DNA from: a virus
Length of the DNA: 14,283 bases
Direction: 5' to 3' (one strand)
UHGV virus genome: UHGV-0283667
A program made the position numbers and the translations under genes. The notes below the pieces were generated by a model. That model did not search any database. It worked only from the letters and a program-made list of their open reading frames with translations, and was not told the origin of the DNA. This document shows, in pieces, positions 1 to 14,283 of this stretch (the first letter of the stretch is position 1; every line of letters begins with the position of its first letter).

Positions 1-77
1 CCTGCGCCCACGTTATAGACGAACGAGTAAAGAGCGCCGCGCGTTGTTTCCGGTATATCGACTTTGATGTACGGGTT
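1..77 (-). pseudogene. Phage endolysin (T4-lysozyme-like, GH24) fragment; reading frame runs leftward out of the window and is cut off near position 77
   Basis: Reverse-complement translation of 1-77 gives ...[26 protein letters not shown], matching the conserved core of enterobacterial prophage lysozymes. Similarity stops near 77, where the + strand Rz frame begins. Confidence 0.55.
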
Positions 78-385
78 ATTACCGTGATAACGCAATCGCC
101 TACAAAGAGCAGCGCGATAACAAGGCCAGTGAACTGGAGAAGGCGAACGCTACCATCGCTGACATGCGGAAGCGTCAACGTGATGTAGCAGAACTCGACG
201 CAAGATACACAAAGGAGCTTGCTGATGCTAACGCGACTATCGAAAGTCTCCGTGCTGATGTTTCTGCTGGGCGTAAGCGCCTGCAAGTCGCCGCCACCTG
301 TGCAAAGTCAACGACCGGTCTCACAGAAAAGCCGCCCCGAGATGGTCGCCACCATATACGGCAGTTCTCAGGCTCAACTTTCTGA
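68..385 (+). pseudogene. Rz-like inner-membrane spanin (i-spanin) fragment lacking the N-terminal transmembrane segment and the native C-terminus
   Basis: Frame opens after the TGA at 65-67. Translation [80 protein letters not shown] is lambda Rz-like (about residues 25-103). After position 316 the frame reads a non-Rz tail ([22 protein letters not shown]) to the stop at 383-385. Confidence 0.7.
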
Positions 386-398
386 AAGGCTCGGGTGA
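225..398 (+). CDS. Rz1-like outer-membrane lipoprotein spanin (o-spanin), 57 aa, in the +1 frame of Rz
   Basis: Not in the ORF track (under 60 aa). RBS AGGAG at 213-217, ATG at 225. Translation [57 protein letters not shown] has a lipoprotein signal with lipobox Cys followed by a Pro-rich stretch, as in lambda Rz1. The C-terminal part lies in the inverted segment and may not be native. Confidence 0.5.
257..316. repeat. Left arm of a 60-bp inverted repeat (58/60 identical to the reverse complement of 641-700)
   Basis: Read directly: 257-316 equals the reverse complement of 641-700 except at 266/691 and 307/650. The match does not extend at either end. Confidence 0.9.
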
Positions 399-437
399 TG
401 TAATAGGCGCGTGAGATGCGCTGTGAAATTCAGATGT

Positions 438-464
438 AAAAAAAGCCCCGCATCGCGAGGCTCA
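438..464 (-). terminator. Rho-independent terminator on the minus strand, just downstream of the minus-strand Rz fragment
   Basis: Minus-strand sequence GAGCCTCGC-GAT-GCGGGGC followed by seven U: 7-bp GC-rich stem with one G-U pair. The stem sequence is nearly identical to the + strand terminator at 1201-1226. Confidence 0.6.
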
Positions 465-493
465 TTAAATGGACTTTGTGATTTGCAAAAAAA

Positions 494-775
494 TTATTTC
501 AGGCATTGCGTCCTGATGTATTCCTGCAGGTAGTTAACCTGCGCGGTTATCTTGTCGATTCCACTTCGGAGACGGTAATAATTGAGTTCAGCATCTGCTG
601 TAAGTCCTGGGCTTTCTCCATCGCCCATGCCGCTGGCTCTGGTCGTTGATTTTGCACAGGTGGCGGCGACTTGCAGGCGCTTACGCCCAGAAGAAACATC
701 GTTTGAGGTTAAGCATCTGGCGCGCGGTAAGTGGTTGCGTTGAAATAAGAGCCAGTCCATTACAAATTTCATCAA
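494..775 (-). pseudogene. Rz (i-spanin) C-terminal portion encoded on the minus strand, fused to an unrelated 25-aa N-terminal leader
   Basis: From the arm at 700 downward the translation [66 protein letters not shown] matches the lambda Rz C-terminus, including the ...YI..QC end. The first 25 residues are not Rz-like, and the start is TTG/ATG with no clear RBS. Confidence 0.65.
641..700. repeat. Right arm of the 60-bp inverted repeat
   Basis: Reverse complement of 257-316 with two mismatches. Confidence 0.9.
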
Positions 776-1737: not shown

Positions 1738-2232
1738 ATGGCTGGAACGGCGGGGCGTTCCGGGCGTCGCCCCAAGCCAACGGCGCGCAAGGCGCTGGCC
1801 GGAAACCCCGGCAAGCGAGCCCTGAATAAAGATGAACCCGTTTTTACGCCCATCAAAGGTGTTGAGCCACCGGAGTGGTTCGCTGAAGAAGAGCTCCCTC
1901 TCGCCACGATCATGTGGCAACTGACAACCAAAGAACTCTGTGGTCAGGGCCTGCTGTGCGTGACTGACCTCGCAGTGCTTGAGCGGTGGTGCGTAGCCTA
2001 TGAGTTCTGGCGACGTGCTGTGAAAAATATTGCCAGCCAGGGCAACACCATCACCGGTGCAATGGGCGGCATGGTCAAAAATCCGGAGCTGACCGCCAAA
2101 AAAGAACAGGAGTCCGAGATGAGCAGTACGGGGGCAATGCTCGGACTCGACCCCAGCAGCCGCCAGCGTCTGATTGGCCTGGCGGGGCAGAAGAAAGCCA
2201 CTAACCCGTTTCTGAAAATTATCGAATCATGA
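1738..2232 (+). CDS. Terminase small subunit (P27-family-like)
   Basis: RBS AGGAG at 1725-1729, ATG at 1738 (the ORF track begins at an upstream GTG, 1729). About 164 aa with a basic N-terminus. The stop overlaps the terminase large subunit start (ATGA at 2229-2232). Confidence 0.85.
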
Positions 2233-3110
2233 GCCGGAAATCTTACCCCAACGTAAATGCAGCAAATCAGTATGCCCGGGATGTCGTGCGCGGAAAGATT
2301 GTTGCCTGCCAGTTTGTGATTCAGGCCTGCCAGCGCCATCTTGATGACCTGATGGCGGAAAAAAGTAAGTCGTTTCGTTACCGCTTCGACAAGGACCTGG
2401 CTGAACGGGCCGCCAAATTTATTCAGCTGTTGCCGCACACCAAGGGTGAGTGGGCATTTAAACGGATGCCCATCACGCTGGAGCCGTGGCAGCTATTTGT
2501 GATCTGCTGTGCGTTTGGCTGGGTCAATAAAGGCACCCGGTTGCGCCGCTTCCGGGAGGTGTATACCGAAATTCCCCGTAAGAACGGCAAATCGGCAATC
2601 TCTGCCGGTGTTGCCCTGTATTGTTTTGCCTGTGATAACGAGTTCGGCGCGGAAGTGTATTCCGGTGCCACGACGGAGAAACAGGCATGGGAAGTCTTTC
2701 GTCCGGCACGACTGATGTGTAAACGCACACCCATGCTGACGGAAGCGTTCGGGATTGAGGTTAACGCCTCAAACATGAACCGTCCGGAGGATGGTGCGCG
2801 GTTTGAACCGCTGATCGGTAACCCCGGTGATGGTTCATCACCCCACTGTGCCGTGGTGGATGAATATCACGAGCACGCCACAGATGCGCTTTACACCACG
2901 ATGCTTACCGGGATGGGGGCGCGACGCCAGCCACTGACCTCGAACTGCTCAAGAGTCAGTGATTTATCCTCGCAGCTCTGCCAGCTCACCAGGTTGAAAT
3001 ACGCCGAACGCGCCGACACCCAGATATTGAGGTGTTTTGTTTTAAAGACGTTTGCCAGACGGGCGTTATTTTTCGCACGTTGCTGCTGGCTTAACAAAAA
3101 CTCGCGATAA
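2229..3110 (+). CDS. Terminase large subunit, N-terminal ATPase part; family similarity ends near 2938 and the rest of the ORF is out-of-sense read-through
   Basis: Walker A-like IPRKNGKS and Walker B-like AVVDEYHEH, then ...[11 protein letters not shown]. From about 2939 the + frame reads junk ([13 protein letters not shown]...) to the stop at 3108-3110. Confidence 0.8.
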
Positions 3111-3200
3111 ACCGACACACCGATATTCGGGTTAGCTTTTTCAAGTACCTGCGGGTCGGTCCAGTCGTCGCCTTCGTCAACGGTATAGATGATCCTGGCC
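2939..3200 (-). other. Internal terminase large subunit segment in inverted orientation (sense on the minus strand)
   Basis: Minus-strand translation [87 protein letters not shown] carries the terminase signature DDW.DP...KANPN...FKTKHLN.W. It lies exactly between the N- and C-terminal + strand parts, which share one reading frame. Confidence 0.75.
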
Positions 3201-3749
3201 CCGCGTTTCTGGGTACCGTATGACACGGTGTATAGCGTCGAGAAAAATGAAGATCGCCGGACAGCCGAACGCTTTCAGAAATGGGTGGAAATGGGCGTCC
3301 TGACCGTTACCGATGGTGCAGAGGTGGATTATCGCTACATCCTCGAAGAGGCCAAAGCGGCGAACAAAATCAGCCCGGTCAGCGAGTCACCCATCGACCC
3401 CTTCGGGGCGACCGGGTTGTCACATGACCTTGCTGATGAAGACCTGAACCCCGTCACCATCATTCAGAACTACACCAACATGTCCGACCCGATGAAAGAG
3501 CTGGAAGCGGCAATTGAATCGGGGCGCTTTCATCATGATGGCAATCCCATCATGACCTGGTGTATCGGCAACGTGGTCGGAAAAACCATTCCGGGTAACG
3601 ATGATGTGGTGAAACCCGTCAAAGAGCAGGCGGAAAACAAAATCGATGGTGCAGTTGCGCTGATTATGGCGGTTGGCAGAGCCATGCTGTACGAGAAAGA
3701 AGACACGCTGTCTGACCACATTGAGTCCTACGGGATCCGCTCGCTTTAA
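3189..3749 (+). CDS. Terminase large subunit, C-terminal nuclease part (family similarity from about 3201)
   Basis: ...[20 protein letters not shown]...[18 protein letters not shown]...[16 protein letters not shown] is typical of the Terminase_1 C-terminal nuclease domain. Same frame (0) as the N-terminal part. Confidence 0.8.
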
Positions 3750-3829
3750 CTGAGGTAATTATGATCATGCTGATTCTCGCGCCTCTGGTAGGCGTGCTGG
3801 GGGCGCTTTTGCTGGCGTATGGTGTTCAG

Positions 3830-3937
3830 GCTGCCGTTCAGGTGATACAGATTGCAGGGCAACATCCCGACCGACTCTGCCAGCACCCTGACGCAGGAAA
3901 AAACCGCCGTCAGTCGCATGGCCCGCTGGCTGCTGAT
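3830..3937 (-). other. Portal protein N-terminal conserved segment in inverted orientation
   Basis: Minus-strand translation ISSQRAMRLTAVFSCVRVLAESVGMLPCNLYHLNGS matches the N-terminal conserved helix of HK97-family portals, but lies on the strand opposite the portal body. Confidence 0.65.
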
Positions 3938-3953
3938 CTGCTTTCCGGTATAG

Positions 3954-4814
3954 GTGTCATATGACACTGGCTGTGTGGTACCGAAGCTTAACAGTAGCTG
4001 GGAGCCGGTCTATCAGGTCACATTCCCGGACGGCTCCACGGATGTGCTGACCCAGGAGGATATCTGGCATGTGCGCACGCTGACGCTGGACGGTCTGGTG
4101 GGACTGAATCCCATCGCCTATGCCCGCGAGGCAATATCGCTGGCAGCAGCGACTGAAGAGCACGGTGCCAGACTGTTCAGCAATGGCGCGGTGACGTCCG
4201 GTGTGTTGCGTACAGAACAGACGCTGTCGGATCAGGCTTATGAGCGCCTGAAGAAAGATTTTGAGGAGCGTCACACCGGGCTTGGCAATGCTCACCGCCC
4301 GATGATCCTTGAGATGGGGCTGGACTGGAAGTCGATGGCGCTGAACGCCGAGGACAGCCAGTTCCTGGAAACCCGCAAGTTTCAGCTTGAAGAAATCTGT
4401 CGTCTGTTCCGTGTGCCCTTGCACATGGTGCAGAACACCGATCGCGCCACCTTCAACAATATCGAAGAGCTGGGGCTGGGATTTATCAACTATTCACTGG
4501 TGCCGTATCTGACCCGTATTGAGCAGCGGATCAACACCGGACTGGTACGAAAAAGTAAGCAGGGCGTTTATTACGCCAAATTTAACGCCGGGGCGTTACT
4601 GCGCGGGGATATGAAGTCCCGTTTTGAAGCCTACGCCACCGGGATCAACTGGGGAATTTACTCTCCCAATGACTGCCGCGACCTGGAAGATATGAATCCG
4701 CGTCCCGGTGGTGATGTCTATCTCACACCGATGAACATGACCACGAAACCCTCCGATGGTAGTAAAGCCGGTAAGCAGAAGGATAACGCCAATGCAGACG
4801 AAACAACGTCTTGA
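3954..4814 (+). CDS. Portal protein (HK97 family), body and C-terminus; N-terminal region missing from this strand
   Basis: ...EPVYQVTFPDGSTDVL...LVGLNPIAYAREAISLAAATEEHGARLFSNGAVTSGVL...FLETRKFQLEEICRLFRVPLHMVQ...GGDVYLTPMNM is portal-like. The ORF opens at GTG 3954 inside a 14-bp palindrome, with a frame-0 stop at 3951-3953 immediately upstream. Confidence 0.85.
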   Translation: MSYDTGCVVPKLNSSWEPVYQVTFPDGSTDVLTQEDIWHVRTLTLDGLVGLNPIAYAREAISLAAATEEHGARLFSNGAVTSGVLRTEQTLSDQAYERLKKDFEERHTGLGNAHRPMILEMGLDWKSMALNAEDSQFLETRKFQLEEICRLFRVPLHMVQNTDRATFNNIEELGLGFINYSLVPYLTRIEQRINTGLVRKSKQGVYYAKFNAGALLRGDMKSRFEAYATGINWGIYSPNDCRDLEDMNPRPGGDVYLTPMNMTTKPSDGSKAGKQKDNANADETTS

Positions 4815-5442
4815 TGTACCGCTGAGTCTGAAATCTGTCAGTGACTCCGGTGAGTTTGAAGGGTATGGCTCCGTCTTTGGTGTAAAGGACAGCCACGATG
4901 ATGTGGTGATGTCCGGGGCATTTGCTGCTTCCCTGCGGGCGTGGAGTGACAGAAAAACGTTACCTGCGCTGCTCTGGCAGCACCGCATGGATGAACCCAT
5001 CGGTGTTTACACCGAAATGAAGGAAGACGATGTCGGGCTTTACGTCAGGGGACGGTTGCTCATTGATGATGATCCCCTCGCAAAACGCGCACATGCACAC
5101 ATGAAGGCCGGTTCGTTAACCGGCCTTTCTATTGGGTACGTCCTGAAAGACTGGGAATACGACCGGAGCAAAGAAGCCTTTCTGTTGAAAGAAATCGACC
5201 TCTGGGAAGTCAGTCTGGTGACGTTCCCGTCTAACGACGAGGCGCGGATCAGCAACGTCAAGAACGCGCTGGCCCGCGGGGAAATCCCCGAACAGAAAAA
5301 AATCGAAAGAGTCCTGCGTGATGTCGGACTCTCCCGTACCCAGGCCAAAGCATTCATGGCCGGGGGCTATGGCGCACTGTCCCTGCGCGACGCTGAGGAT
5401 GTGGGCTCTGCACTGAATGCACTTAAAAATCTGAACTTCTAA
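4792..5442 (+). CDS. Prohead maturation protease (HK97 family)
   Basis: RBS AAGGA at 4779-4783, ATG at 4792 (track start 4756 has no RBS). Overlaps the portal 3' end. HK97-protease-like sequence. Confidence 0.85.
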   Translation: MQTKQRLDVPLSLKSVSDSGEFEGYGSVFGVKDSHDDVVMSGAFAASLRAWSDRKTLPALLWQHRMDEPIGVYTEMKEDDVGLYVRGRLLIDDDPLAKRAHAHMKAGSLTGLSIGYVLKDWEYDRSKEAFLLKEIDLWEVSLVTFPSNDEARISNVKNALARGEIPEQKKIERVLRDVGLSRTQAKAFMAGGYGALSLRDAEDVGSALNALKNLNF

Positions 5443-5456
5443 TCAGGAGAAATACG

Positions 5457-6662
5457 ATGGCGGTTGATATTAAAGATGTGGAACAGGTCGCGCAGGAGCT
5501 GCAGCAGAAGTTTGACGACTTCAGGGCAAAGAACGACAAGCGCGTGGATGCGATTGAGCAGGAAAAAGGCAAACTTGCCGGGCAGGTGGAAACCCTGAAC
5601 GGGAAACTCAGCGAGCTGGAAAATCTCAAAAGCGACCTTGAAAAAGAGCTGCTTGAGCTGAAACGTCCGGCAGGTGGTGCGCAAAATAAACTGGCCACAG
5701 AGCACAAAGAGGCGTTTGTGGGCTTTCTGCGTAAAGGCCGTGAAGACGGTCTGCGCGATCTGGAGCGCAAGGCATTGCAGGTGGGCACTGATGAAGACGG
5801 TGGCTATGCCGTGCCGGAAGCACTGGATCGCAACATTCTCACCCTGCTGAAAGATGAAGTGGTGATGCGCCAGGAAGCCACGGTGATCACTGTTGGCGGT
5901 TCCGACTACAAAAAACTGGTGAATCTGGGCGGCACGGCTTCCGGATGGGTGGGCGAGACTGACGCGCGCTCCCAGACTGCCACCTCAAAACTGGGACTGA
6001 TTGAACCTTTCATGGGGGAAATCTACGGTAACCCGCAGGCCACTCAGAAAATGCTGGATGATGCCTTCTTCAACGTGGAGGCCTGGATCAACAGCGAGCT
6101 GGCGACCGAATTTGCCGAACAGGAAGAAATTGCCTTTACCACCGGTGATGGCACTAAGAAGCCAAAAGGGTTCCTGGCGTATGAATCCACCGATGAAACC
6201 GATAAGGTTCGTGCGTTCGGTAAACTTCAGCATATTGTATCCGGTGAAGCGACGACGGTGACCGCAGACGCCATTATCAAACTGATTTACACGCTGCGTA
6301 AGGCACACCGCACTGGCGCGAAGTTCATGATGAACAACAACAGCCTGTTTGCCATCCGTCTGCTGAAAGACACCGAGGGTAACTATCTGTGGCGTCCGGG
6401 GCTGGAGCTGGGGCAACCGTCCTCTCTGGCGGGTTACGGTATCGCTGAAAACGAACAGATGCCGGATATCGCCGCTGATGCGAAAGCTATTGCATTTGGT
6501 AACTTCAAACGGGGTTACACCATCGTTGACCGTATCGGTACCCGCATTCTGCGTGATCCGTACACCAATAAACCGTTTGTCGGTTTTTATACCACCAAGC
6601 GCACCGGCGGCATGCTGGTCGATTCGCAGGCCATCAAACTGCTGAAGATTGCAGCGGCGTAG
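5457..6662 (+). CDS. Major capsid protein (HK97 fold) with N-terminal coiled-coil delta/scaffold domain
   Basis: RBS AGGAG at 5443-5447. The first ~100 aa are a charged coiled coil (KLSELENLKSDLEKELLELK), followed by a capsid domain of HK97-like length (401 aa total). Confidence 0.9.
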   Translation: MAVDIKDVEQVAQELQQKFDDFRAKNDKRVDAIEQEKGKLAGQVETLNGKLSELENLKSDLEKELLELKRPAGGAQNKLATEHKEAFVGFLRKGREDGLRDLERKALQVGTDEDGGYAVPEALDRNILTLLKDEVVMRQEATVITVGGSDYKKLVNLGGTASGWVGETDARSQTATSKLGLIEPFMGEIYGNPQATQKMLDDAFFNVEAWINSELATEFAEQEEIAFTTGDGTKKPKGFLAYESTDETDKVRAFGKLQHIVSGEATTVTADAIIKLIYTLRKAHRTGAKFMMNNNSLFAIRLLKDTEGNYLWRPGLELGQPSSLAGYGIAENEQMPDIAADAKAIAFGNFKRGYTIVDRIGTRILRDPYTNKPFVGFYTTKRTGGMLVDSQAIKLLKIAAA

Positions 6663-6670
6663 TCATTCAG

Positions 6671-6688
6671 GGGCGCTGAATTGCGCCC
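6671..6688 (+). terminator. GC-rich stem-loop directly after the major capsid gene; possible partial terminator or mRNA stabiliser
   Basis: GGGCGC-TGAATT-GCGCCC, followed by TTGTTCT (weak U tract). Confidence 0.35.
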
Positions 6689-6711
6689 TTGTTCTGACAG
6701 GTGAAAGAATC

Positions 6712-6900
6712 ATGATCCTGAAACAAGATCTGAAATGGTCACCGGACGGTATGCGCGTTGAGATCATTCGTGCTGGTGAGTATGAAGATAAAGAATTACC
6801 CGAACGGGTACGTGAAATTGCCACTGCAGCAGGGATTGTTTCTGATAAGAGAACACCTGTTGCACGGGTATCTGATAAGGCTAAAAAACAGCATTCATAG
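6712..6900 (+). CDS. Hypothetical small protein (62 aa) between capsid and connector genes
   Basis: ATG at 6712 in frame with track ORF 6649..6900. Hydrophilic, no recognisable family. Lower GC than neighbours. Confidence 0.45.
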   Translation: MILKQDLKWSPDGMRVEIIRAGEYEDKELPERVREIATAAGIVSDKRTPVARVSDKAKKQHS

Positions 6901-6911
6901 AGGTAGCCCAA

Positions 6912-7217
6912 ATGATGCCTACTCTGGAAGAGCTTCGTGTTCAGTGCCGGATTGATGATGACAATGAACAGGAGAATGCACTTCTTATGATGTATCTGGC
7001 AGCAGCCAGAGAAGAGGCTGAAAAGTTTTTAAACCGGACACTTCACGATGAAACTGTTCCTGATCAGGATACGACCGGGCTTGTAATAACACCACTGATA
7101 AAGTTGCGTCTTATGCAACTGGTTGGCTACTGGTACGAGAACAGGGAAATGCAGGATGCTGTACCTGATTTTTTCTATACCGGACTCCGAATGTATCGGT
7201 TTCATCCCGGAACATAG
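6912..7217 (+). CDS. Head-tail connector protein (gp6-like)
   Basis: N-terminal pattern M.PTLEELRVQCRIDDD...ALL..YLAAAREE typical of gp6-like connector proteins. Size 101 aa and position after the capsid gene fit. Confidence 0.7.
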   Translation: MMPTLEELRVQCRIDDDNEQENALLMMYLAAAREEAEKFLNRTLHDETVPDQDTTGLVITPLIKLRLMQLVGYWYENREMQDAVPDFFYTGLRMYRFHPGT

Positions 7218-7226
7218 GAGGATTTC

Positions 7227-7565
7227 ATGCAGGCAGGAAGATTACGTGATCGCGTGGTTATTCTGAATATTACGACCTCCCGTACCCCTTCCGGTCACCC
7301 GGAGGAAACCCTGAAAGAGGGGGCTACGGTATGGGCAGAGGTTAAGGGGATCAGTGGGCGGGAACGTATATCGGGCGGTGCGGAAACCGCGCAGACAACA
7401 GTAAGAGTCTGGATGCGATTTCGGCGCGATGTGACGGCCGCCTCACGTCTGAAAGTGCTGACCGGGGCATTCAAGGGAGCCATTCTGAATATCGACGGGC
7501 CGCCGATCCCGGACGCACGATCCTCCAGGCTTGAAATACTTTGCAGCCAGAGAGGTGGAATGTGA
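7227..7565 (+). CDS. Head closure / head-tail adaptor protein
   Basis: RBS AGGAGG 7 nt upstream of ATG 7227. N-terminal MQAGRLRDRVVI motif typical of the head-tail joining family. 112 aa. Confidence 0.7.
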   Translation: MQAGRLRDRVVILNITTSRTPSGHPEETLKEGATVWAEVKGISGRERISGGAETAQTTVRVWMRFRRDVTAASRLKVLTGAFKGAILNIDGPPIPDARSSRLEILCSQRGGM

Positions 7566-8011
7566 CGGATTTTAGTCTGGATTTTTCTGGCCTGGCGGAT
7601 ATTGCAAGAGATCTGGAACTTCTCAGCAGAGCAGAGAGTAATAAGGTGCTTCGCGATGCCTCCCGTGCCGGTGCAGAGGTTATCCGGGAGGCGGTTATTG
7701 ATCATGCGCCAGAGCGAACCGGAAAACTGAAGAAAAACGTGGTTATTCTGACTCAGCGTTCACGGCGTCGTGGTGAAATTATCTCTGGTGTCCACATTCG
7801 TGGGCGGAATCTGCGAACCGGAAACAGTGATAACAGCATGAAAGCCAGCGATCCGCGAAACGCGTTTTACTGGCGTTTCGTGGAGCTGGGGACTATCAAT
7901 ATGCCTGCCCATCCGTTCATTCGCCCGGCCTTTGATACGACAGAGGAGCTGGCAGCACAGGTTGCCATGAAGCATATGAATCAGGCTATTGATGGGGTGC
8001 TGAGTAAATGA
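7562..8011 (+). CDS. Tail component, HK97 gp10-like family
   Basis: Likely GTG start at 7562 after RBS AGAGGTGG (track start is TTG 7541). Motifs ...IDHAPERTGKL... and ...FYWRFVELGT...PAHPFIRPAFD resemble the gp10 family. Confidence 0.65.
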   Translation: MTDFSLDFSGLADIARDLELLSRAESNKVLRDASRAGAEVIREAVIDHAPERTGKLKKNVVILTQRSRRRGEIISGVHIRGRNLRTGNSDNSMKASDPRNAFYWRFVELGTINMPAHPFIRPAFDTTEELAAQVAMKHMNQAIDGVLSK

Positions 8012-8352
8012 GAGAAGCCACGCTGTATGCTCTTCTGTCCCAACTGGCCGGAGGGCAGGTTTATCCTTATGTGGTCCCGCTGACGGAGGGAAAGCCTGCG
8101 GTATCTCCACCATGGCTGGTGTTTTCAGTGGTGTCTGACATCGCGTCTGATGTGCTTGATGGTCAGGCTGAATCCAGAATTACCGTGCAGATTGATATCT
8201 GGGCAACGGCTCCTGATGACGCAGATGATATCCGTGAGCAGGCGCTTGATGCGGTAAGGGAACTGGCACCATCCGTTATTTCTAAAACTCAGGGTTATGA
8301 TCCTGATTCCCGTCTGAGCAGAGCTACGCTTGAATTTCAGGTAATAGCCTGA
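8008..8352 (+). CDS. Tail completion protein (DUF3168-like)
   Basis: ATGA start/stop overlap with the upstream gene. N-terminal ...LYALL...VYPYVVP... pattern. 114 aa. Confidence 0.55.
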   Translation: MREATLYALLSQLAGGQVYPYVVPLTEGKPAVSPPWLVFSVVSDIASDVLDGQAESRITVQIDIWATAPDDADDIREQALDAVRELAPSVISKTQGYDPDSRLSRATLEFQVIA

Positions 8353-8373
8353 GGTCGTTAATGATTTTACCCA

Positions 8374-8394
8374 CCCGCCGCTGGCGGGTTTTTT
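8374..8394 (+). terminator. Intrinsic terminator-like hairpin immediately upstream of the major tail protein gene
   Basis: CCCGCC-GCT-GGCGGG followed by TTTTTT. Confidence 0.6.
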
Positions 8395-8411
8395 ATTTTC
8401 AGGAGACGAGT

Positions 8412-9116
8412 ATGTCCTCTAATTTTGAACGTTCTCAGCAGACCAAAGTCATGATCTCGTCTGCACCGGTAACGGCAGAAACGCTGAGTTCTGCCAGTTT
8501 TCTTGAACTGAGCTGTACGATTAAAGAGGTTCAGTTTACCGCCGGGCAGAAACAGGATATTGATGTCACTACGCTGTGTTCTACCGAGCAGGAGAATATC
8601 AACGGTCTTGGGGCTGCTTCAGAGATTTCCATGTCAGGAAACTTTTATCTCAACTCTGCCCAGAACGCGTTGCGTAGTGCTTATGACAACGACACCACAT
8701 ACGGTTTCAAAGTTATTTTCCCGTCAGGAAATGGATTTACTTTTATGGCAGAAGTTCGCCAGCATACCTGGTCTGTGGGAACCAACGGTGTTGTTGCTGC
8801 CACATTTTCCCTGCGCCTGAAAGGAAAGCCCTCTCTGACCACTGAACCTTTGAAACTCCTCTCTGATTTGAAAAGTACACTACAGGTTTCTGCCAGTGAA
8901 ACGCTGAATATGTCTGTTGAGGCATCAGGTGGTGTGCCTCCTTATTCATATGTCTGGAAGAAAGGCAGCTCTCCAGTTTCCGGGCAGACATCGGCAACTT
9001 TCAACAAGGCCTCCGTGACATCCGGAGATGCCGGTGCGTATACCTGTGAGGTTTCTGATTCAGCAAGCCCGATTAATAAGGTGACCTCCACTTCCTGCAC
9101 CGTAACTGTCAGTTAA
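8412..9116 (+). CDS. Major tail protein with C-terminal Ig-like domain
   Basis: RBS AGGAG 6 nt upstream of ATG 8412 (track start 8361 lies inside the terminator). The C-terminal ~85 aa look like a Big_2/Ig-like domain. Confidence 0.8.
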   Translation: MSSNFERSQQTKVMISSAPVTAETLSSASFLELSCTIKEVQFTAGQKQDIDVTTLCSTEQENINGLGAASEISMSGNFYLNSAQNALRSAYDNDTTYGFKVIFPSGNGFTFMAEVRQHTWSVGTNGVVAATFSLRLKGKPSLTTEPLKLLSDLKSTLQVSASETLNMSVEASGGVPPYSYVWKKGSSPVSGQTSATFNKASVTSGDAGAYTCEVSDSASPINKVTSTSCTVTVS

Positions 9117-9130
9117 GGAGGATGAAATCT

Positions 9131-9502
9131 ATGTCTAAAAATATCCGCAATCTGGCACTGGCGACGATGTCTGGTTTTCGCCACAAAACAGTTGATGTTC
9201 CTGAGTGGGAAGGTACAACGGTTGTATTACGGGAACCCTCTGCAGAAGCCTGGTTACGTTGGCAGGAGATCGTTAAAACCGGAGATGATGATACACCGTT
9301 ATCAGTTGCGGAGCGTGCCCGCCGAAATCTGGAAGCGGATGTTGAACTGTTCATCGATGTTCTGTGTGATACCGGGATGCAACCCGTGTTTTCAGCGGAT
9401 GATCGGGAGCAGGTACTTGCAGTATATGGTCCGGTACATGCGCGACTGCTTCGTCAGTCACTGGAACTGATCACTGATGCTGAAGTTATTAAAAAAAAGT
9501 AG
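9131..9502 (+). CDS. Tail assembly chaperone (gpG-like)
   Basis: RBS AAGGAGG at 9115-9121, ATG at 9131. Acidic ~124-aa protein directly upstream of the tape measure gene, ending in a slippery A-run. Confidence 0.75.
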   Translation: MSKNIRNLALATMSGFRHKTVDVPEWEGTTVVLREPSAEAWLRWQEIVKTGDDDTPLSVAERARRNLEADVELFIDVLCDTGMQPVFSADDREQVLAVYGPVHARLLRQSLELITDAEVIKKK

Positions 9503-9804
9503 CACTTCCGGGTATTCGTTTTCTGATGATGCTGGCGCTCAGGATGGGGCGCACATTGTCAGAGTTACGCCGGGAAATGTCTGCATCGGAAATCATGATG
9601 TGGGCAGAATTTGACAGGATCAGCCCGCTGGGTGACGAGCGGGCTGATATCCGGGCTGCCCAGATAGTTTCTGCAGTTTACGGGGCGCAGGGTGTCAAAG
9701 TTCCACTGAATGAAGCGATTCTTCAGTGGGAGGTCGTTCCTGCAAATAATATTAAAGATCCGTTCACAGCGTTTGAAAATGCATTATTTGCAGCGACACA
9801 ATGA
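9131..9804 (+). CDS. Tail assembly chaperone frameshift fusion product (gpGT-like) by -1 ribosomal frameshift at 9493-9499
   Basis: The -1 frame is open from 9493 through the stop at 9802-9804. The slippery run sits just before the G stop at 9500-9502. Confidence 0.65.
9491..9499 (+). promoter_or_regulatory. Programmed -1 frameshift slippery site (A AAA AAG)
   Basis: Heptamer A-AAA-AAG at 9493-9499 within the run AAAAAAAAG (9491-9499). Confidence 0.65.
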
Positions 9805-9814
9805 TCTTCTTACT

Positions 9815-9844
9815 TTACTGGATTATGATTCCGATTTTTATTAA
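9815..9844 (+). promoter_or_regulatory. Candidate sigma-70 promoter for the downstream moron
   Basis: TTACTG (9815-9820), 18-bp spacer, TATTAA (9839-9844), in an AT-rich intergenic stretch. Confidence 0.3.
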
Positions 9845-9862
9845 GTAAATAAGGAGATATTG

Positions 9863-10204
9863 ATGGAAGTTATTCTTATTGCGCTAGTCCTGGGGTTAAT
9901 TCCGGCTATTATCGCGCAAAGTAAAGGGCGTTCATTTTGGGGATGGTGGATATACGGAGCCTTACTCTTTATCGTTGCCTTGGTTCATTCACTTGTAATC
10001 CAAAAAGATGAAAAAACGCATGAGCAACAAATGGTGAGCAATGGCATGAAAAAATGCCCTTACTGTGCGGAGTTGATCAAAGAAGAAGCCATTAAGTGTA
10101 AGCATTGCGGTAGTGATTTAACACATAACCCTGATAGTACCGTTTCGCAAAAAACGGATGATGAATATCTTGAAGAAGCAAGGCGTAAGGCTGGGCTTCT
10201 TTAA
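9863..10204 (+). CDS. Moron: small membrane protein with two predicted TM helices and a C-terminal zinc-ribbon (CPYC...CKHC)
   Basis: RBS AAGGAG at 9851-9856, ATG at 9863. Two hydrophobic stretches, then CPYC-x13-CKHC. AT-rich codon usage unlike flanking tail genes. Own terminator downstream. Confidence 0.7.
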   Translation: MEVILIALVLGLIPAIIAQSKGRSFWGWWIYGALLFIVALVHSLVIQKDEKTHEQQMVSNGMKKCPYCAELIKEEAIKCKHCGSDLTHNPDSTVSQKTDDEYLEEARRKAGLL

Positions 10205-10209
10205 AAGCA

Positions 10210-10234
10210 AAAACCGCTTCGGCGGTTTTTTTTT
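10210..10234 (+). terminator. Rho-independent terminator (A-tract upstream, so possibly bidirectional)
   Basis: AAAACCGC-TTCG-GCGGTTTT followed by a T9 run. Confidence 0.75.
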
Positions 10235-10249
10235 GCCTGGAGAACGAGA

Positions 10250-13200
10250 ATGGCGTCACTACGCGAACTGATTATAAAAATCTCGGCAAATTCGCAGTCA
10301 TTCCAGTCAGAAATTGCGCGAGCTTCACGTATGGGACAGGAGTACTACCGTACCATGCAGAACGGAGGTCGACAGTCTGCAGCTGCATCCCGTGATATGC
10401 GGCGAGCACTGGCAGAAGTGACCGAGCAGATAAATACGGCGAAGTCTTCGGCAATGAATATGGCTGGCGCATTTGCCGGTGCTTTTGCCACTGGACATCT
10501 TATATCTCTTGCGGATGAATGGAGCTCAGTAAATGCCCGTTTGAAGCAGGCCACGCAGTCCAGCGATGATTTCCAGGCATCACAGCGCGAATTAATGGCG
10601 ATCAGCCAGAGAACGGGTACTGCTTTTGCTGATAACGCCAGTCTTTTTGCACGTTCGGCTTCTTCCATGCGGGAATATGGTTACAGGTCTGAGGAAGTAC
10701 TGAAAGTTACCGAGGCCATTTCTACAGGATTGAAATTGTCCGGAGCCAGTTCTGCGGAAGCCAGCTCGGTGATCACTCAGTTCAGCCAGGCACTGGCGCA
10801 AGGGGTTCTGCGCGGTGAAGAGTTTAATTCAGTAAATGAAAGCGGTGATCGTGTTATTCGTGCTCTGGCTGCAGGAATGGGGGTTGCCCGTAAAGATCTG
10901 AAGGCAATGGCGGATGATGGAAAGCTGACCGCCGATAAGGTTGTTCCTGCACTGATTAGCCAGCTTGGTACGCTGCGGGATGAATATGCAGCCATGCCTG
11001 ATACCGTATCATCCTCTGCAACCAAAGTTGAAAACGCCTTTATGGCCTGGGTTGGTGGTGCGAATGATGCCAGCGGTGCAACGAAAACGCTTACCGGAAT
11101 AATGAATGGTGTTGCGAATAATATTGATACGGTTGCCACGGCGGCGGGAGCTCTGGTTGCAATTGGTGTAGCCCGATATTTTGGCAATATGGCGTCTTCT
11201 GCGGGCTCTGCAACTGCCGGGTTAATCACTGTTGCCAGAAACGAAGTGGCTCTTGCTGAGGCACAGCTCAGAGGGACACAGATAGCAACAGCCAGAGCGC
11301 GGGCGGCATTGTATCGTGCGCAGCAGGCGGTTGTGGCTGCCCGTGGTACAGAAAAACAGGCTGCAGCAGAAGCGAAACTGGCAACCGCACAGGCTTCACT
11401 TACCCGTAATATTGCTGCCAGAACAGCGGCACAGGCAACGCTGAATAACGTTACGTCAGTTAGTAGTCGGTTGTTAAGCGGTGCTCTGGGGCTGGTTGGT
11501 GGTGTGCCTGGACTTGTCATGCTGGGGGCGGCGGCCTGGTACACAATGTATCAGAACCAGGAGCAGGCCAGAGAATCAGCGCGTCAGTATGCCGCAACAA
11601 TCGACGAAATTCGCCAGAAAACGTCTGCAATGTCACTTCCTGAAGCGGCAGATAATGAAGAAAAGACGCGGCAGGCTCTGGAGGAGCAGAACAGGTTAAT
11701 TGACGAGCAGAAAAGTAAGATTAAATCCTTACAGGAAAAAATTGCTGGCTATCAGTATGTCCTGGCAAACCCGGGCTGGACAACCGATAACGGTTTTATG
11801 ATTAACCACATGACGTCGGTGAAAACTGTCACAGAAGGGCTTGCAGAAGCAACAAGTCAGCTGGCTGTTGAGCAGTCCCGACTTTCCGGAATGCAGGAAA
11901 AAGCCCAGTCAATCCAGGATGTGCTTGCCGGGCTGGAAGAACGACGAGTGGTGCTGATCCGCCAACAGGCAGCGGAACAAAACAAAGCATATCAGTCATT
12001 ACTGATCATGAATGGCCAACATACCGAGTTTAATCGTCTTCTTGGGCTTGGTAATGAATTACTTCAGCAGCGACAGGGGCTGGTGAATGTACCGTTACGG
12101 CTGCCACAGGCTGCTCTGGATGATAAACAGCAGAACGCGCTGAATAACACTGAGCGAGAGCTGACCTTATCCCGTATGAAGGGGGAAGCGCGTGAGCGTA
12201 CTCGTCTGGGCTATGTAGCGGATGATCTCGGTTTTGTGGGGGATGCCTATCAGACGGCAAGGCAAACTTATATCAACAACGCGCTGGAAGCATGGCGTAA
12301 CAACCAGGCGAATAAGCCAAAGGTACGTGGTGGAAAATCGGAAGCAGAAAAAACGGAAGATGCTTATAACAGACTGATTAAACAACAAAAAGAACAAATA
12401 GCACTGGCAGGACAGAATACTGAACTGGCTAAGATGAAATACCAGGTCAGCCAGGGCGAATTATCAACCTTATCAGAAGCGCAGAAACAAACCCTTTTAC
12501 AGAATGCAGCACTCATCGACCAGAAAAAAATTCGTGAGCAAATTGCTGCTTATGAAAGCAGCCTGGCGGACAGTAACGCCAGTGTCAGGGCATCAAATGA
12601 GGCTCAGTTGTTAGGGTATGGAGACGGAACACGAATACGTGAGCGGCTTCAGGAAATGTGGAACATCCGACAGGAGTTTGAGCAGAAAAATAATGAGTTG
12701 CTGAGACAGTACCAGACCGGAGAAATCGAAGAAGCCCTGTGGAAACAGGAAAAAACGCTGAATGAAAAATATCTGGAGGAGCGTCTCAACGATCAGCAGG
12801 ATTATTATGCAAAGGCCGATGCTTTACGCAGTAACTGGAATGCTGGGCTCAAAGAGGGGCTGACGAACTGGGCAGACAGTGCCACTGATTATGCTTCACA
12901 AGCGGCAGATGCGGTCGTTTCCACTATGGATGGTCTGGTTTCAAATATTTCCGAGGCACTGGCCGGAAACGTTGTGGACTGGAGAAACTGGGGGAGTTCG
13001 ATCCTTCAGGAAGTTTCAAAAATCCTGATGAACGCGGCCATTGTTAACGGGCTGAAATCACTCTCCGGGACAATGTCGGGAGCGGGGGGATGGATTGGTA
13101 GTGTTGGCGACTGGCTTTCCGGTGCAGTAGCGAACGCAAAAGGCGGTGTTTACACATCGGCAAATCTGAGTGCTTACAGTAACACCATTGTGGATACGCC

Positions 13201-13492
13201 GACGTACTTTGCTTTTGCGAAAGGTGCCGGGCTGATGGGGGAAGCCGGACCTGAAGCTATCATGCCGCTTACGCGGGCGGCGGACGGTTCTCTTGGGGTC
13301 AGGGCTATTGGCAATGTGAATGGTGGTGGCGGATTTGTCTATTCTCCCGTGTATCACATCAATATTCAGAATAAAGGGAGCAATGGCGAGATTGATACGC
13401 AGTCAGCCAGGGGGCTGGTGGATCTGATCGACAGCAGGGTTGTGTCAATTATGCAGTCATCACGTCGGGACGGAGGATTATGCAGTGCCTGA
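10250..13492 (+). CDS. Tail tape measure protein (1080 aa)
   Basis: RBS GGAGA 6 nt upstream of ATG 10250. Long Ala/Gln-rich helical protein immediately after the G/GT chaperone genes. Confidence 0.92.
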   Translation: MASLRELIIKISANSQSFQSEIARASRMGQEYYRTMQNGGRQSAAASRDMRRALAEVTEQINTAKSSAMNMAGAFAGAFATGHLISLADEWSSVNARLKQATQSSDDFQASQRELMAISQRTGTAFADNASLFARSASSMREYGYRSEEVLKVTEAISTGLKLSGASSAEASSVITQFSQALAQGVLRGEEFNSVNESGDRVIRALAAGMGVARKDLKAMADDGKLTADKVVPALISQLGTLRDEYAAMPDTVSSSATKVENAFMAWVGGANDASGATKTLTGIMNGVANNIDTVATAAGALVAIGVARYFGNMASSAGSATAGLITVARNEVALAEAQLRGTQIATARARAALYRAQQAVVAARGTEKQAAAEAKLATAQASLTRNIAARTAAQATLNNVTSVSSRLLSGALGLVGGVPGLVMLGAAAWYTMYQNQEQARESARQYAATIDEIRQKTSAMSLPEAADNEEKTRQALEEQNRLIDEQKSKIKSLQEKIAGYQYVLANPGWTTDNGFMINHMTSVKTVTEGLAEATSQLAVEQSRLSGMQEKAQSIQDVLAGLEERRVVLIRQQAAEQNKAYQSLLIMNGQHTEFNRLLGLGNELLQQRQGLVNVPLRLPQAALDDKQQNALNNTERELTLSRMKGEARERTRLGYVADDLGFVGDAYQTARQTYINNALEAWRNNQANKPKVRGGKSEAEKTEDAYNRLIKQQKEQIALAGQNTELAKMKYQVSQGELSTLSEAQKQTLLQNAALIDQKKIREQIAAYESSLADSNASVRASNEAQLLGYGDGTRIRERLQEMWNIRQEFEQKNNELLRQYQTGEIEEALWKQEKTLNEKYLEERLNDQQDYYAKADALRSNWNAGLKEGLTNWADSATDYASQAADAVVSTMDGLVSNISEALAGNVVDWRNWGSSILQEVSKILMNAAIVNGLKSLSGTMSGAGGWIGSVGDWLSGAVANAKGGVYTSANLSAYSNTIVDTPTYFAFAKGAGLMGEAGPEAIMPLTRAADGSLGVRAIGNVNGGGGFVYSPVYHINIQNKGSNGEIDTQSARGLVDLIDSRVVSIMQSSRRDGGLCSA

Positions 13493-13826
13493 ACCTGAAG
13501 CTTTTAACTGGATCCCCCGCGAGGGGATGGAGACGACACGAAAGCCATCTGTTATTACGGTAAAGTTCGGTGACGGATATGAACAGCGACGGGCTGGTGG
13601 TCTGAATGCGGATCTGAAAACGTTTAAACCGGTATTTCGGGTCACAGATGAATATTCCCGCGCTGCGCTGGACAGTTTTTTATCCCGTCATGCCGGGATG
13701 CGTGCTTTTTTGTGGCGTCCGCCAAAATACAACAGGACCGTCCGGGTTGTCTGCAGGGAGTGGAGTATTTCGGATAATGCCATGTATACCGATTTTAACT
13801 GTACCTTTGAAGAGGTCACTCACTGA
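13485..13826 (+). CDS. Minor tail protein M (lambda gpM-like)
   Basis: Likely GTG start at 13485 after RBS GGAGGA, overlapping the tape measure 3' end (track start is TTG 13440). ...VKFGDGYEQRRAGGLNADLKTFKPVF...FLWRPP... matches lambda M. Confidence 0.85.
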   Translation: MPEPEAFNWIPREGMETTRKPSVITVKFGDGYEQRRAGGLNADLKTFKPVFRVTDEYSRAALDSFLSRHAGMRAFLWRPPKYNRTVRVVCREWSISDNAMYTDFNCTFEEVTH

Positions 13827-14218
13827 TGCAGGATATACAGCAGGAAACACTGAATGAGTGTACAAAATCGGAGCAATCCGCGCTGGTCGTGCTCTGGGAA
13901 GTCGATCTGACAGAGGTCGGCGGAGAGCGTTATTTTTTCTGTAATGAGCAGAACGAAAAAGGTGAGTCGGTCACCTGGCAGGGGCGACAGTATCAGGCGT
14001 ACCCTATTCAGGGAAGCGGCTTTGAGATGAACGGCAAAGGAGCCAGTGCAAGACCAACGCTGAAAGTCTCTAACCTGCACGGCATGGTCACCGGGATGGC
14101 GGAAGACCTGCAGAGTCTGGTCGGCGGAAAGGTAGTCAGGCGTAAGGTTTGCCAAAGTTGCCGACGTTATTGCGAAACTTACAGCCACTCAGGCATTTGC
14201 TGCATTTATCCTTCGTGA
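13826..14218 (+). CDS. Minor tail protein L (lambda gpL-like), N-terminal 108 aa; family similarity ends at 14149
   Basis: MQDIQQETLNECTKSEQSALVVLWEVDLTEVGGERYFFCNEQNEKGE.VTWQGRQYQ.YPIQGSGFE.NGKG...VVRRKV is nearly identical in pattern to lambda L. From 14150 the frame reads non-L sequence. Start overlaps the M stop. Confidence 0.85.
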   Translation: MQDIQQETLNECTKSEQSALVVLWEVDLTEVGGERYFFCNEQNEKGESVTWQGRQYQAYPIQGSGFEMNGKGASARPTLKVSNLHGMVTGMAEDLQSLVGGKVVRRKVCQSCRRYCETYSHSGICCIYPS

Positions 14219-14283
14219 TATCGGACGTCGGCTGGTCATATTCATCCGCGACAGCCGGACCGCTATAACCGCACTCATCACCG
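14150..14283 (-). other. Minor tail protein L C-terminal region in inverted orientation; continues beyond the window end
   Basis: Minus-strand translation GDECGYSGPAVADEYDQPTSDITKDKCSKCLSGCKFRNNVGNFG matches the Cys-rich C-terminal region of lambda L. Confidence 0.75.

What the first reader, a model, noticed from the sequence alone, without database searches (positions are those of the whole stretch)
13826..14283. Minor tail protein L interrupted at codon 108 by an inverted block carrying its C-terminal region
The + strand matches lambda L through ...GGKVVRRKV (ends 14149), then reads unrelated Cys-rich sequence to the stop at 14216-14218. The minus strand from the window end down to 14151 encodes GDECGYSGPAVADEYDQPTSDITKDKCSKCLSGCKFRNNVGNFG, the Cys-rich metal-binding C-terminal region of lambda L. 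The junction is precise to within 1-2 nt. If L is about 230 aa as in lambda, the inverted block is about 340 bp and extends about 200 bp past the window.
Basis: partly seen in the sequence, partly recalled or inferred. Interest (0 to 1): 0.7.

Follow-up and report, generated by a model that had tools for sequence, protein, structure and literature searches.

The report
Chimeric contig end, not an inversion
The tail gene L does switch strands at base 14150/14151, but this is one of eight identical-looking blunt strand-flips in the window, and they bear the signature of a sequencing or assembly artefact rather than a biological inversion.

Summary
Window 13826-14150 (+) encodes residues 1-108 of minor tail protein L. 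Window 14151-14283 (-) encodes L residues 179-222. The join is blunt, between 14150 and 14151.

The interpretation as a discrete ~340-bp inversion is not supported. Compared with 11 nearly identical prophage copies that all carry an intact 232-aa L, the window is a zig-zag of alternating direct and inverted blocks. It has eight strand-flip junctions, including ones that wreck the terminase and portal genes. Each junction joins opposite strands of points 304-366 bp apart in the reference (mean 333, sd 23), although block sizes range from 142 to 386 bp. Six of the eight have no microhomology.

Both window ends lie within 133 nt of a junction. The only base private to the window in 13.4 kb sits 21 nt before the L junction. 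The junction is absent from 5,426 complete E. coli genomes and from the phage, plasmid, viral, metagenome and GTDB-genome collections.

The constant distance fits fragment length minus read length. That is what unsplit read pairs (R1 followed by un-reversed R2) would give when assembled at low coverage, and a simulation reproduced the architecture. Verdict: artefact, low interest.

The parts
13826..14150 (+). 5' part of gene L (minor tail / tail-tip protein L): codons 1-108 plus the first base of codon 109. Colinear with the reference prophage.
   Evidence: Equals L001 15001-15325, 99.7%. PF05100 profile 1-81, E=1.7e-35. Protein alignment.
14130..14130 (+). The only base private to the window in w833-14283: A where all 8 near-identical references have C. 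It causes T102K and lies 21 nt upstream of the junction.
   Evidence: Interpreted as a read-end or single-template error carried into the contig along with the chimeric join (inference).
14150..14151 (.). Blunt strand-flip junction joining reference position 15325 (+) to 15666 (-), 341 bp apart, with 0 bp microhomology.
   Evidence: The 40-mer spanning it is absent from viral, metagenome and genome contig collections. No record spans it in E. coli complete genomes, phages or plasmids.
14151..14283 (-). Terminal inverted block: reverse complement of L codons 179-222 (reference 15534-15666), cut by the window end. On the + strand its first 68 nt supply the out-of-frame 22-aa tail and stop codon of the chimeric ORF.
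1..78 (-). Terminal inverted block at the other window end (lysozyme-gene sequence, inverted relative to gene order), followed by a strand-flip junction with a join distance of 310 bp.
   Evidence: vs L012.
78..318 (+). Direct block (lysis-cassette sequence, 99.6% to L012) between the first two junctions.
315..700 (-). Inverted block in the lysis region, with join distances of 324 and 304 bp. Its last 60 nt are an imperfect (97%) inverted duplicate of w257-316.
2938..3195 (-). Inverted 258-bp block inside the large-terminase gene. 108 and 105 reference bases are missing on its two sides. Join distances are 366 and 363 bp.
   Evidence: No inverted repeats at its borders.
3825..3966 (-). Inverted 142-bp block from the start of the portal gene. 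197 and 173 reference bases are missing on its two sides (ymfR and the portal start are lost). Join distances are 339 and 315 bp.
   Evidence: No inverted repeats at its borders.
3967..14150 (+). Long colinear block (portal remainder, protease, capsid, connectors, tail tube, chaperones, tape measure, M, 5' L), 99.97-99.99% identical to references.

Best explanation
The strand switch inside gene L is a technical chimera in the assembled sequence, not a rearrangement of the phage DNA. The window is a contig of a common E. coli prophage with an HK97-type head and lambda-type tail (it sits next to dusA in strain 1517k). During assembly the path flipped strands eight times.

The most likely mechanism is that paired reads were used unsplit. 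Each record was read 1 followed directly by read 2 in its own orientation, which is what an unsplit dump of sequencing 'spots' gives. That boundary joins the end of R1 to the far end of the same library fragment on the opposite strand. The result is a blunt, homology-free join of opposite strands at a distance equal to fragment length minus read length (about 333 bp here).

The walk then runs backwards until it meets the coverage gap and flips forward again through a second such record. This leaves an inverted block, and the reference bases next to it go missing. The L event is the last of these: the contig flips at 14150 and dies 133 nt later, about one read length.

Shown here: the multi-junction architecture, the constant join distance, the blunt ends, the uniqueness of the junction, the private base next to the junction, and sufficiency of the mechanism in simulation. 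Inferred: that unsplit pairs, rather than another pipeline fault, caused it. I put about 0.9 on 'artefact of some kind' and about 0.6 on this particular mechanism. The confidence given for this entry (0.8) is for the statement as a whole, weighted towards the artefact verdict.
For: (1) The same pattern appears against 11 independent copies of the prophage, so the window is the odd one out. Ten assemblies encoding the identical 1080-aa tape measure all have an intact 232-aa L and 413-aa portal, and nine list a 577-aa TerL (498 aa as called in L008).
(2) There are eight strand-flip junctions in 14.3 kb with join distances of 310, 324, 304, 366, 363, 339, 315 and 341 bp (mean 333, sd 23, CV 7%). 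Inverted blocks range from 142 to 386 bp and the skipped reference from -82 to +197 bp. Skipped length and block length correlate at r=-0.98, so the distance is the conserved quantity.
(3) Microhomology at the eight junctions is 1, 4, 0, 0, 0, 0, 0, 0 bp.
(4) Both window ends lie 78 and 133 nt beyond a junction. The chance of that is about 0.003 on junction density.
(5) There is exactly one window-private base in 13.4 kb, and it lies 21 nt before the L junction. By my own arithmetic the chance of lying within 21 nt of any of the 6 junctions is about 0.02.
(6) Apart from the flips, identity to the references is 99.97-100% with no indels. Four destructive rearrangement events without accompanying point mutations would have to be extremely recent.
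(7) The junction was found nowhere else: 0 of 5,426 complete E. coli genomes, 50,697 phage records and 72,556 plasmids, no hit in the viral, metagenome or GTDB contig scans, and no protein with the chimeric tail among 5.8 billion clusters.
(8) In simulation, a greedy k=31 assembler fed unsplit R1+R2 records from L001 (r=150, fragment 483+/-24) put strand flips into 39 of 43 contigs >=5 kb. Median join distance was 334-349 bp, with internal inverted blocks and short inverted tails at contig ends. One example had 4 junctions in a 6.2-kb contig at 5x coverage. Split reads gave 0 of 40.
Against: I could not find the source contig or its reads, so nothing is verified at read level (searches found no record of the window's chimeric ORFs). 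The junctions are unevenly spread: seven in the first 4 kb, none in the next 10.2 kb, then one. Random coverage gaps would give this only with modest probability. The simulations use toy assemblers. The unitig version gave only short contigs, and the greedy version gave 30-nt tails rather than 78-133 nt. The one large pipeline I could check (Logan) dumps reads with 'fasterq-dump --fasta-unsorted' and discards singleton k-mers, so it would not produce this unless reads were deposited already joined. No paper describing this exact artefact was retrieved.
Confidence: 0.8

Rival explanations
1. Small contigs were mis-oriented during scaffolding or gap closing. A low-coverage assembly produced short contigs (142-386 bp) between larger ones, a scaffolder placed them backwards, and the gaps were closed without Ns.
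For: The two complete inverted blocks mapped on L001 are flanked by missing reference sequence, as gaps would be. The window has no Ns.
Against: This does not predict a constant join distance. Here gap size compensates for block size (r=-0.98) and even goes negative: the w315-700 block overlaps its neighbour by 62 bp as an inverted duplicate. Every complete short block mapped on L001 (258 and 142 bp), plus w315-700, is inverted, and no deletion-only event occurs. Scaffolders set orientation from pair links and normally leave Ns.
Confidence: 0.07
2. The chimeras are physical, made by a strand-displacing polymerase (MDA / phi29 whole-genome amplification) before sequencing. Displaced 3' ends re-prime on the opposite strand nearby, giving inverted joins with intervening deletions.
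For: The form matches. [quoted passage not shown]
Against: In that study 93.5% of inverted joins <10 kb apart had >=2 bp of complementarity at the junction. Here only 1 of 8 does, for a binomial P of about 4e-8 by my arithmetic. MDA distances fall off broadly up to 10 kb and are not fixed at 333+/-23 bp. Chimeric molecules are a minority of reads and should lose to the consensus eight times over.
Confidence: 0.04
3. A genuine, very recent complex rearrangement of a now-defective prophage: several inverted segments with flanking deletions, produced for example by replication template switching or by break repair.
For: The sequence as given contains it, and I cannot inspect reads. Prophages do decay.
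Against: This needs at least four independent inversion-plus-double-deletion events, hitting the terminase, portal, L and lysis genes, in a genome otherwise 99.97-100% identical to intact copies. No known mechanism fixes the jump at ~333 bp. There is no microhomology, and no inverted repeats lie at block borders. It has never been seen in thousands of genomes. Both sequence ends coincide with junctions.
Confidence: 0.04
4. One reading: a single clean ~341-bp inversion inside L (codons 109-222 flipped in place), by site-specific or homologous recombination.
For: The two joined reference points are 341 bp apart, so a clean inversion is arithmetically possible. The right border is outside the window.
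Against: None of the three complete inverted blocks in the same window is clean. Blunt ends with 0 bp homology exclude homologous recombination. No recombinase-type inverted repeats were found at the comparable blocks, and no invertase gene is annotated across the homologous region of L001. The opposite orientation is the only one seen in every other genome.
Confidence: 0.02

Closest known systems
Bacteriophage lambda gpL / Pfam PF05100 Phage_tail_L (tail-tip protein with a Cys-rich C-terminal region)
   Same: Both halves of the finding are bona fide L sequence. Residues 1-108 match profile positions 1-81, and residues 179-222 match profile positions 152-198. They are 99-100% identical to the intact 232-aa L of E. 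coli 1517k. The gene order tape measure, M, L is as in lambda-type tails.
   Different: In the window the two halves lie on opposite strands and residues 109-178 are absent from what is visible, so no functional L is encoded. That the Cys-rich region binds metal is from my own knowledge of the lambda gpL literature and was not tested here.
Chimeric reads or contigs from paired reads left concatenated (R1 followed by un-reverse-complemented R2)
   Same: The junctions are blunt and homology-free, join opposite strands, and share a constant join distance consistent with fragment length minus read length. There are several per contig, and the contig ends have short inverted tails. Simulation reproduced all of these.
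   Different: This could not be verified on the actual reads, and the pipeline that produced the window is unknown. I found no publication documenting this artefact, so the comparison rests on geometry and simulation.
MDA (phi29) inverted chimeras (Lasken and Stockwell 2007, PMC1855051)
   Same: Inverted joins with an intervening deletion between nearby points on one molecule.
   Different: The junction complementarity expected in 93.5% of such joins is seen in only 1 of 8 here. The join distance is fixed rather than broadly distributed.
Invertible DNA segments in phage tail genes (Mu G segment / P1 C segment, Gin/Cin-type invertases; from my own knowledge)
   Same: A tail-gene 3' region appears in inverted orientation relative to its 5' part.
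   Different: Those systems flip a whole segment between inverted-repeat crossover sites without loss of sequence, next to an invertase gene, and they swap alternative C-termini of tail-fibre proteins. Here there are no border repeats, sequence is lost, no invertase is annotated across the homologous region, the affected gene is L rather than a fibre gene, and the result is a truncated protein.

Membership tests
Phage_tail_L (PF05100), lambda gpL-like minor tail protein | Sequence match to the family profile above Pfam's gathering score | tested here: met
   the + ORF scores 122.7 bits (cut-off 25) over profile 1-81. The minus-strand 44-aa peptide scores 58.7 bits over profile 152-198.
Phage_tail_L (PF05100), lambda gpL-like minor tail protein | One continuous ORF covering the whole domain (~232 aa, profile 1-206) | tested here: not met
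   the ORF leaves L after residue 108 and stops after 22 unrelated residues. The reference L001 L covers profile 1-206.
Site-specific invertible segment (Gin/Hin/Cin-type) | Short inverted-repeat crossover sites at both borders of the inverted block | tested here: not met
   no inverted repeats >=8 nt across the borders of the two complete blocks 2938-3195 and 3825-3966. The right border of the L block lies outside the window.
Site-specific invertible segment (Gin/Hin/Cin-type) | Inversion conserves all sequence (no loss at the borders) | tested here: not met
   105-197 reference bases are missing on each side of the two complete inverted blocks mapped on L001.
Site-specific invertible segment (Gin/Hin/Cin-type) | Both orientations occur among related genomes | tested here: not met
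   every related record has the colinear orientation, and none spans the junction.
Site-specific invertible segment (Gin/Hin/Cin-type) | Invertase gene adjacent | tested here: not met
   across the homologous prophage region no invertase is annotated. The only recombinase is the tyrosine integrase ~10 kb downstream of L, next to dusA. I did not scan the window's ORFs individually.
MDA inverted chimera | Opposite-strand join of nearby points with an intervening deletion | tested here: met
MDA inverted chimera | >=2 bp complementarity at most junctions (93.5% for inverted joins <10 kb apart, PMC1855051) | tested here: not met
   1 of 8 junctions has >=2 bp. Paper figures.
Unsplit read-pair (R1+R2) concatenation chimera | Blunt joins of opposite strands at one near-constant distance (fragment length minus read length), independent of block size | tested here: met
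   333 +/- 23 bp over 8 junctions. Skipped length vs block length r=-0.98, permutation p=0.011.
Unsplit read-pair (R1+R2) concatenation chimera | Contig ends terminate in inverted tails no longer than a read | tested here: met
   the tails are 78 and 133 nt. Simulated contigs show the same.
Unsplit read-pair (R1+R2) concatenation chimera | Junction-supporting records are twice the read length, with the join exactly at the R1/R2 boundary | not testable with these tools
   The source reads and source contig could not be located.

The most novel reading that the evidence does not exclude
The sequence is real: a prophage was scrambled very recently by at least four inversion-with-double-deletion events that share a characteristic ~333-bp strand-switch distance. 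That would point to an undescribed replication or repair template-switching process with a fixed step length in E. coli.
Probability: 0.04. Interest if true: 0.6.

Novelty: not a real feature. Interest (0 to 1): 0.06.

Why it matters
As biology it does not matter: there is no evidence that L is inverted in any phage. As quality control it has some use. The window carries eight chimeric joins that create false truncated or fused ORFs in L, TerL and the portal gene. Such ORFs could be mistaken for novel proteins, pseudogenes or invertible switches. The signature described here can be used to flag similar records automatically when a close relative is available: blunt opposite-strand joins at one constant distance, inverted tails at contig ends, and private bases beside the joins.

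Tried and rejected
(1) Locating the source contig to extend the window rightwards. Exact-product look-ups of four ORFs unique to the window (130, 293, 186 and 286 aa) found nothing. The 40-mer across the junction is absent from viral contigs, metagenome contigs and genome contigs.

(2) Looking for the junction in annotated collections (E. coli complete genomes, phages, plasmids). No record spans it.

(3) The assembly-graph branch-point hypothesis. A contig of another assembly (L014) ends at exactly L nt 325, and many database L proteins are partial at aa 104-126. However, the other window breakpoints are not adjacent to polymorphic sites in ten related loci. I treat the shared end point as a coincidence within a stretch where contigs often break. 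It was found after inspecting 120 listed hits, so it carries a multiple-testing caveat.

(4) MDA chimeras: rejected on microhomology and on the distance distribution.

(5) Recombinase-type inversion: rejected because there are no border repeats and sequence is lost.

(6) Attributing the artefact to the Logan pipeline: its methods state that reads are dumped with 'fasterq-dump --fasta-unsorted' and singleton k-mers are dropped, so this is not supported.

(7) A unitig-only de Bruijn simulation with PCR duplicates. It produced the right junction type (d = F - r) only with unsplit reads, but the contigs were too short to match the window. A greedy walker matched better.

(8) A literature search for a description of the unsplit-pair artefact returned nothing directly relevant.

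Full report
OBSERVATION. ORF 13826-14218 (+) is 130 aa. Aligned to the intact 232-aa L of a nearly identical prophage (locus L001, E. coli 1517k), its first 108 residues are L with one substitution, T102K. The last 22 residues are unrelated. The minus strand from 14282 to 14151 translates to GDECGYSG...NNVGNFG, which is 100% identical to L residues 179-222. Pfam places the two pieces at PF05100 profile positions 1-81 and 152-198. At DNA level w13826-14150 equals L001 15001-15325, and w14151-14283 equals the reverse complement of L001 15534-15666. The join is blunt, between 14150 and 14151, with no shared base.

WHAT SURROUNDS IT. The window is the late region of a common E. coli prophage: lysis genes, HNH, small and large terminase, portal, protease, HK97-type capsid, connectors, Ig-domain tail tube, chaperones, tape measure, M and L. 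In strain 1517k it sits next to dusA.

Aligning the whole window to L001 shows that the L junction is not an isolated event. Colinear blocks at 99.97-100% identity alternate with short blocks in reverse orientation:
- w501-700 = rc(L001 989-1188)
- w701-2937 = L001 1293-3529
- w2938-3195 = rc(3638-3895)
- w3196-3824 = 4001-4629
- w3825-3966 = rc(4827-4968)
- w3967-14150 = 5142-15325
- w14151-14283 = rc(15534-15666)

The same breakpoints appear against ten further copies of the prophage from independent assemblies. All ten encode the identical tape-measure protein, an intact 232-aa L and a 413-aa portal, and TerL is 577 aa in nine of them (498 aa as called in L008). The left end continues the pattern when mapped on a DLP12-like lysis cassette (L012): w1-78 and w315-700 lie in one orientation and w78-318 in the other. 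In total there are eight strand-flip junctions in 14.3 kb. They destroy the terminase, ymfR, the portal start and L.

THE SIGNATURE. Each junction joins opposite strands of two reference points that are 310, 324, 304, 366, 363, 339, 315 and 341 bp apart (mean 333, sd 23). This distance stays constant although the complete inverted blocks measure 386, 258 and 142 bp. The reference bases skipped beside them range from +197 to -82, and skipped length versus block length gives r=-0.98. Where the value is negative, the window contains an inverted duplicate, as predicted (arms 257-316 / 641-700). That duplicate is only 97% complementary, so two slightly different lysis cassettes are also mixed at the left end.

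Microhomology at the junctions is 1, 4, 0, 0, 0, 0, 0, 0 bp. Both ends of the window lie just beyond a junction, by 78 and 133 nt. This is unlikely if the ends and the junctions were unrelated (about 0.003). Over w833-14283 the window has a single base that differs from all eight near-identical references. It is 14130 (A for C, the T102K change), 21 nt before the L junction. There are no Ns and no indels.

IS IT SEEN ELSEWHERE? No.
- Every match in 5,426 complete E. coli genomes and 50,697 phage records stops at query base 325, which is w14150. The same holds for 72,556 plasmids.
- The terminase/portal junction cluster is likewise unmatched in 1,590 genomes that carry the region.
- The 40-mer across the junction is absent from the viral, metagenome and GTDB-genome contig collections.
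- In a search of 5.8 billion protein clusters, hits cover 83% of the chimeric ORF (residues 1-108) and none carries its tail. The few that cover more are ordinary deletions or frameshifts.

MECHANISM. A blunt, homology-free join of opposite strands at one fixed distance is the geometry of an Illumina-type read pair. R1 ends at x, and R2 starts at the far end of the same fragment on the other strand, at x + (fragment length - read length). If pairs are handed to an assembler unsplit (R1 immediately followed by R2), each record contains such a join. Where genuine coverage runs out, the record that defines the edge of the gap offers the only continuation. The path then flips, runs backwards to the other edge of the gap, and flips forward again through a second record. 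That yields an inverted block, skipped reference bases beside it, and a join distance that depends only on the library.

The private base 21 nt before the junction fits a 3'-end read error carried in by the single template that supplied the join.

I tested sufficiency by simulation on L001 (r=150, fragments 483+/-24). A unitig-only de Bruijn graph gave such junctions only with unsplit reads, but the contigs were short. With unsplit reads, a greedy k-mer walker put strand flips into 39 of 43 contigs >=5 kb. Median join distance was 334-349 bp, with internal inverted blocks and inverted tails at contig ends. One example had four junctions in a 6.2-kb contig at 5x coverage. With split reads it produced none in 40 contigs.

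This shows the mechanism is sufficient. It does not show that it happened. I could not obtain the reads or the source record.

RIVALS.
- MDA chimeras have the right form, but 93.5% of proximal inverted MDA joins show >=2 bp of complementarity and their distances are broad (PMC1855051). Here only 1 of 8 shows it, and the distance is fixed.
- Mis-oriented small contigs in a scaffold would explain the missing bases but not the constant distance or the overlapping block.
- A recombinase-type or homologous inversion is excluded for the complete blocks, because sequence is lost and there are no border repeats.
- A genuine multi-event scrambling would need at least four destructive rearrangements in a genome with essentially no point changes, sharing an unexplained 333-bp step, and ending exactly where the sequence ends.

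SIDE OBSERVATION ON THE BREAKPOINT. A contig of another assembly (L014, a different prophage about 90% identical) ends at exactly L nt 325. Many database L proteins are partial at residues 104-126. This suggests draft contigs often stop in this stretch of L. However, the window's other breakpoints are not next to polymorphic sites in related loci. I do not build on this observation.

COMPARISON AND VERDICT. Both pieces are genuine members of the L family (PF05100), but the window does not encode a functional L. The arrangement is not a member of the invertible-segment or MDA-chimera classes, because defining features were tested and not met. It meets all testable features of an unsplit-pair concatenation chimera, and the read-level feature remains untestable here.

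I conclude that the finding is not a real biological feature. I put about 0.9 on an artefact of some kind and about 0.6 on the specific unsplit-pair mechanism. It is unlikely, given that none of the three complete events in the same window is clean. Interest is low, apart from its value as a quality flag.

Noticed in passing
window 2229-3749 and 3825-4814: The large terminase and portal genes are each broken by the same kind of inverted block. This creates false ORFs: a 293-aa TerL N-terminus with a junk tail, a 186-aa TerL C-terminus, and a portal lacking its first ~130 residues. ymfR is lost. All are intact in other copies of the prophage.
   Followed up: yes
window 1-700 (arms 257-316 / 641-700): The left end mixes two slightly different lysis cassettes. 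w1-318 is 99.6-100% identical to a DLP12-like rrrD/Rz region (L012), while w501-700 also matches the L001-type Rz at 98.5%. The 60-nt inverted duplicate is only 97% complementary, so the assembler probably also hopped between co-resident prophages.
   Followed up: partly
L014 (GCA_001606475.1 LOGM01000039.1) 2989-3313: An independent 3.3-kb draft contig of a different prophage (~90% identity) ends at exactly the same nucleotide of L (nt 325) as the window's junction. Many database L proteins are 'partial' at residues 104-126, which suggests a frequent contig-break or mosaic boundary in L.
   Followed up: partly
NZ_CP081704.1 (E. coli AH02, 43,680 bp) and NZ_CP081794.1 (E. coli CT01, 43,671 bp): Sequence ~99% identical to the window's terminase-portal region appears as separate ~43.7-kb records in two complete-genome assemblies, in AH02 alongside a chromosomal copy. 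This may be an excised circular form of an active phage.
   Followed up: no
window 9860-10204: A 114-aa ORF between the tail assembly chaperone genes and the tape measure gene. Its counterpart in the related loci is a 113-aa zinc-ribbon protein (PF13248), an extra gene relative to the classic lambda order. It is conserved in all related loci.
   Followed up: no
window 9122-9804: Adjacent chaperone ORFs (homologues carry PF06222 Phage_TAC_1, then PF06223 Phage_tail_T) in the arrangement that in lambda G/GT involves a programmed -1 frameshift. I did not look for the slippery site.
   Followed up: no
L001 21799-22155 (outside the window): The tail-fibre N-terminal-domain gene of the reference prophage contains two 168-bp direct repeat copies spaced 189 bp apart. 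They showed up as secondary BLAST hits while mapping simulated contigs.
   Followed up: no
window 14151-14218 (+ strand): The antisense, out-of-frame reading of L's Cys-rich coding region is itself Cys-rich (6 Cys in 22 aa). This is why the false tail of the chimeric ORF looks like a metal-binding motif and partly aligns with the true CxxCxxxC.
   Followed up: partly
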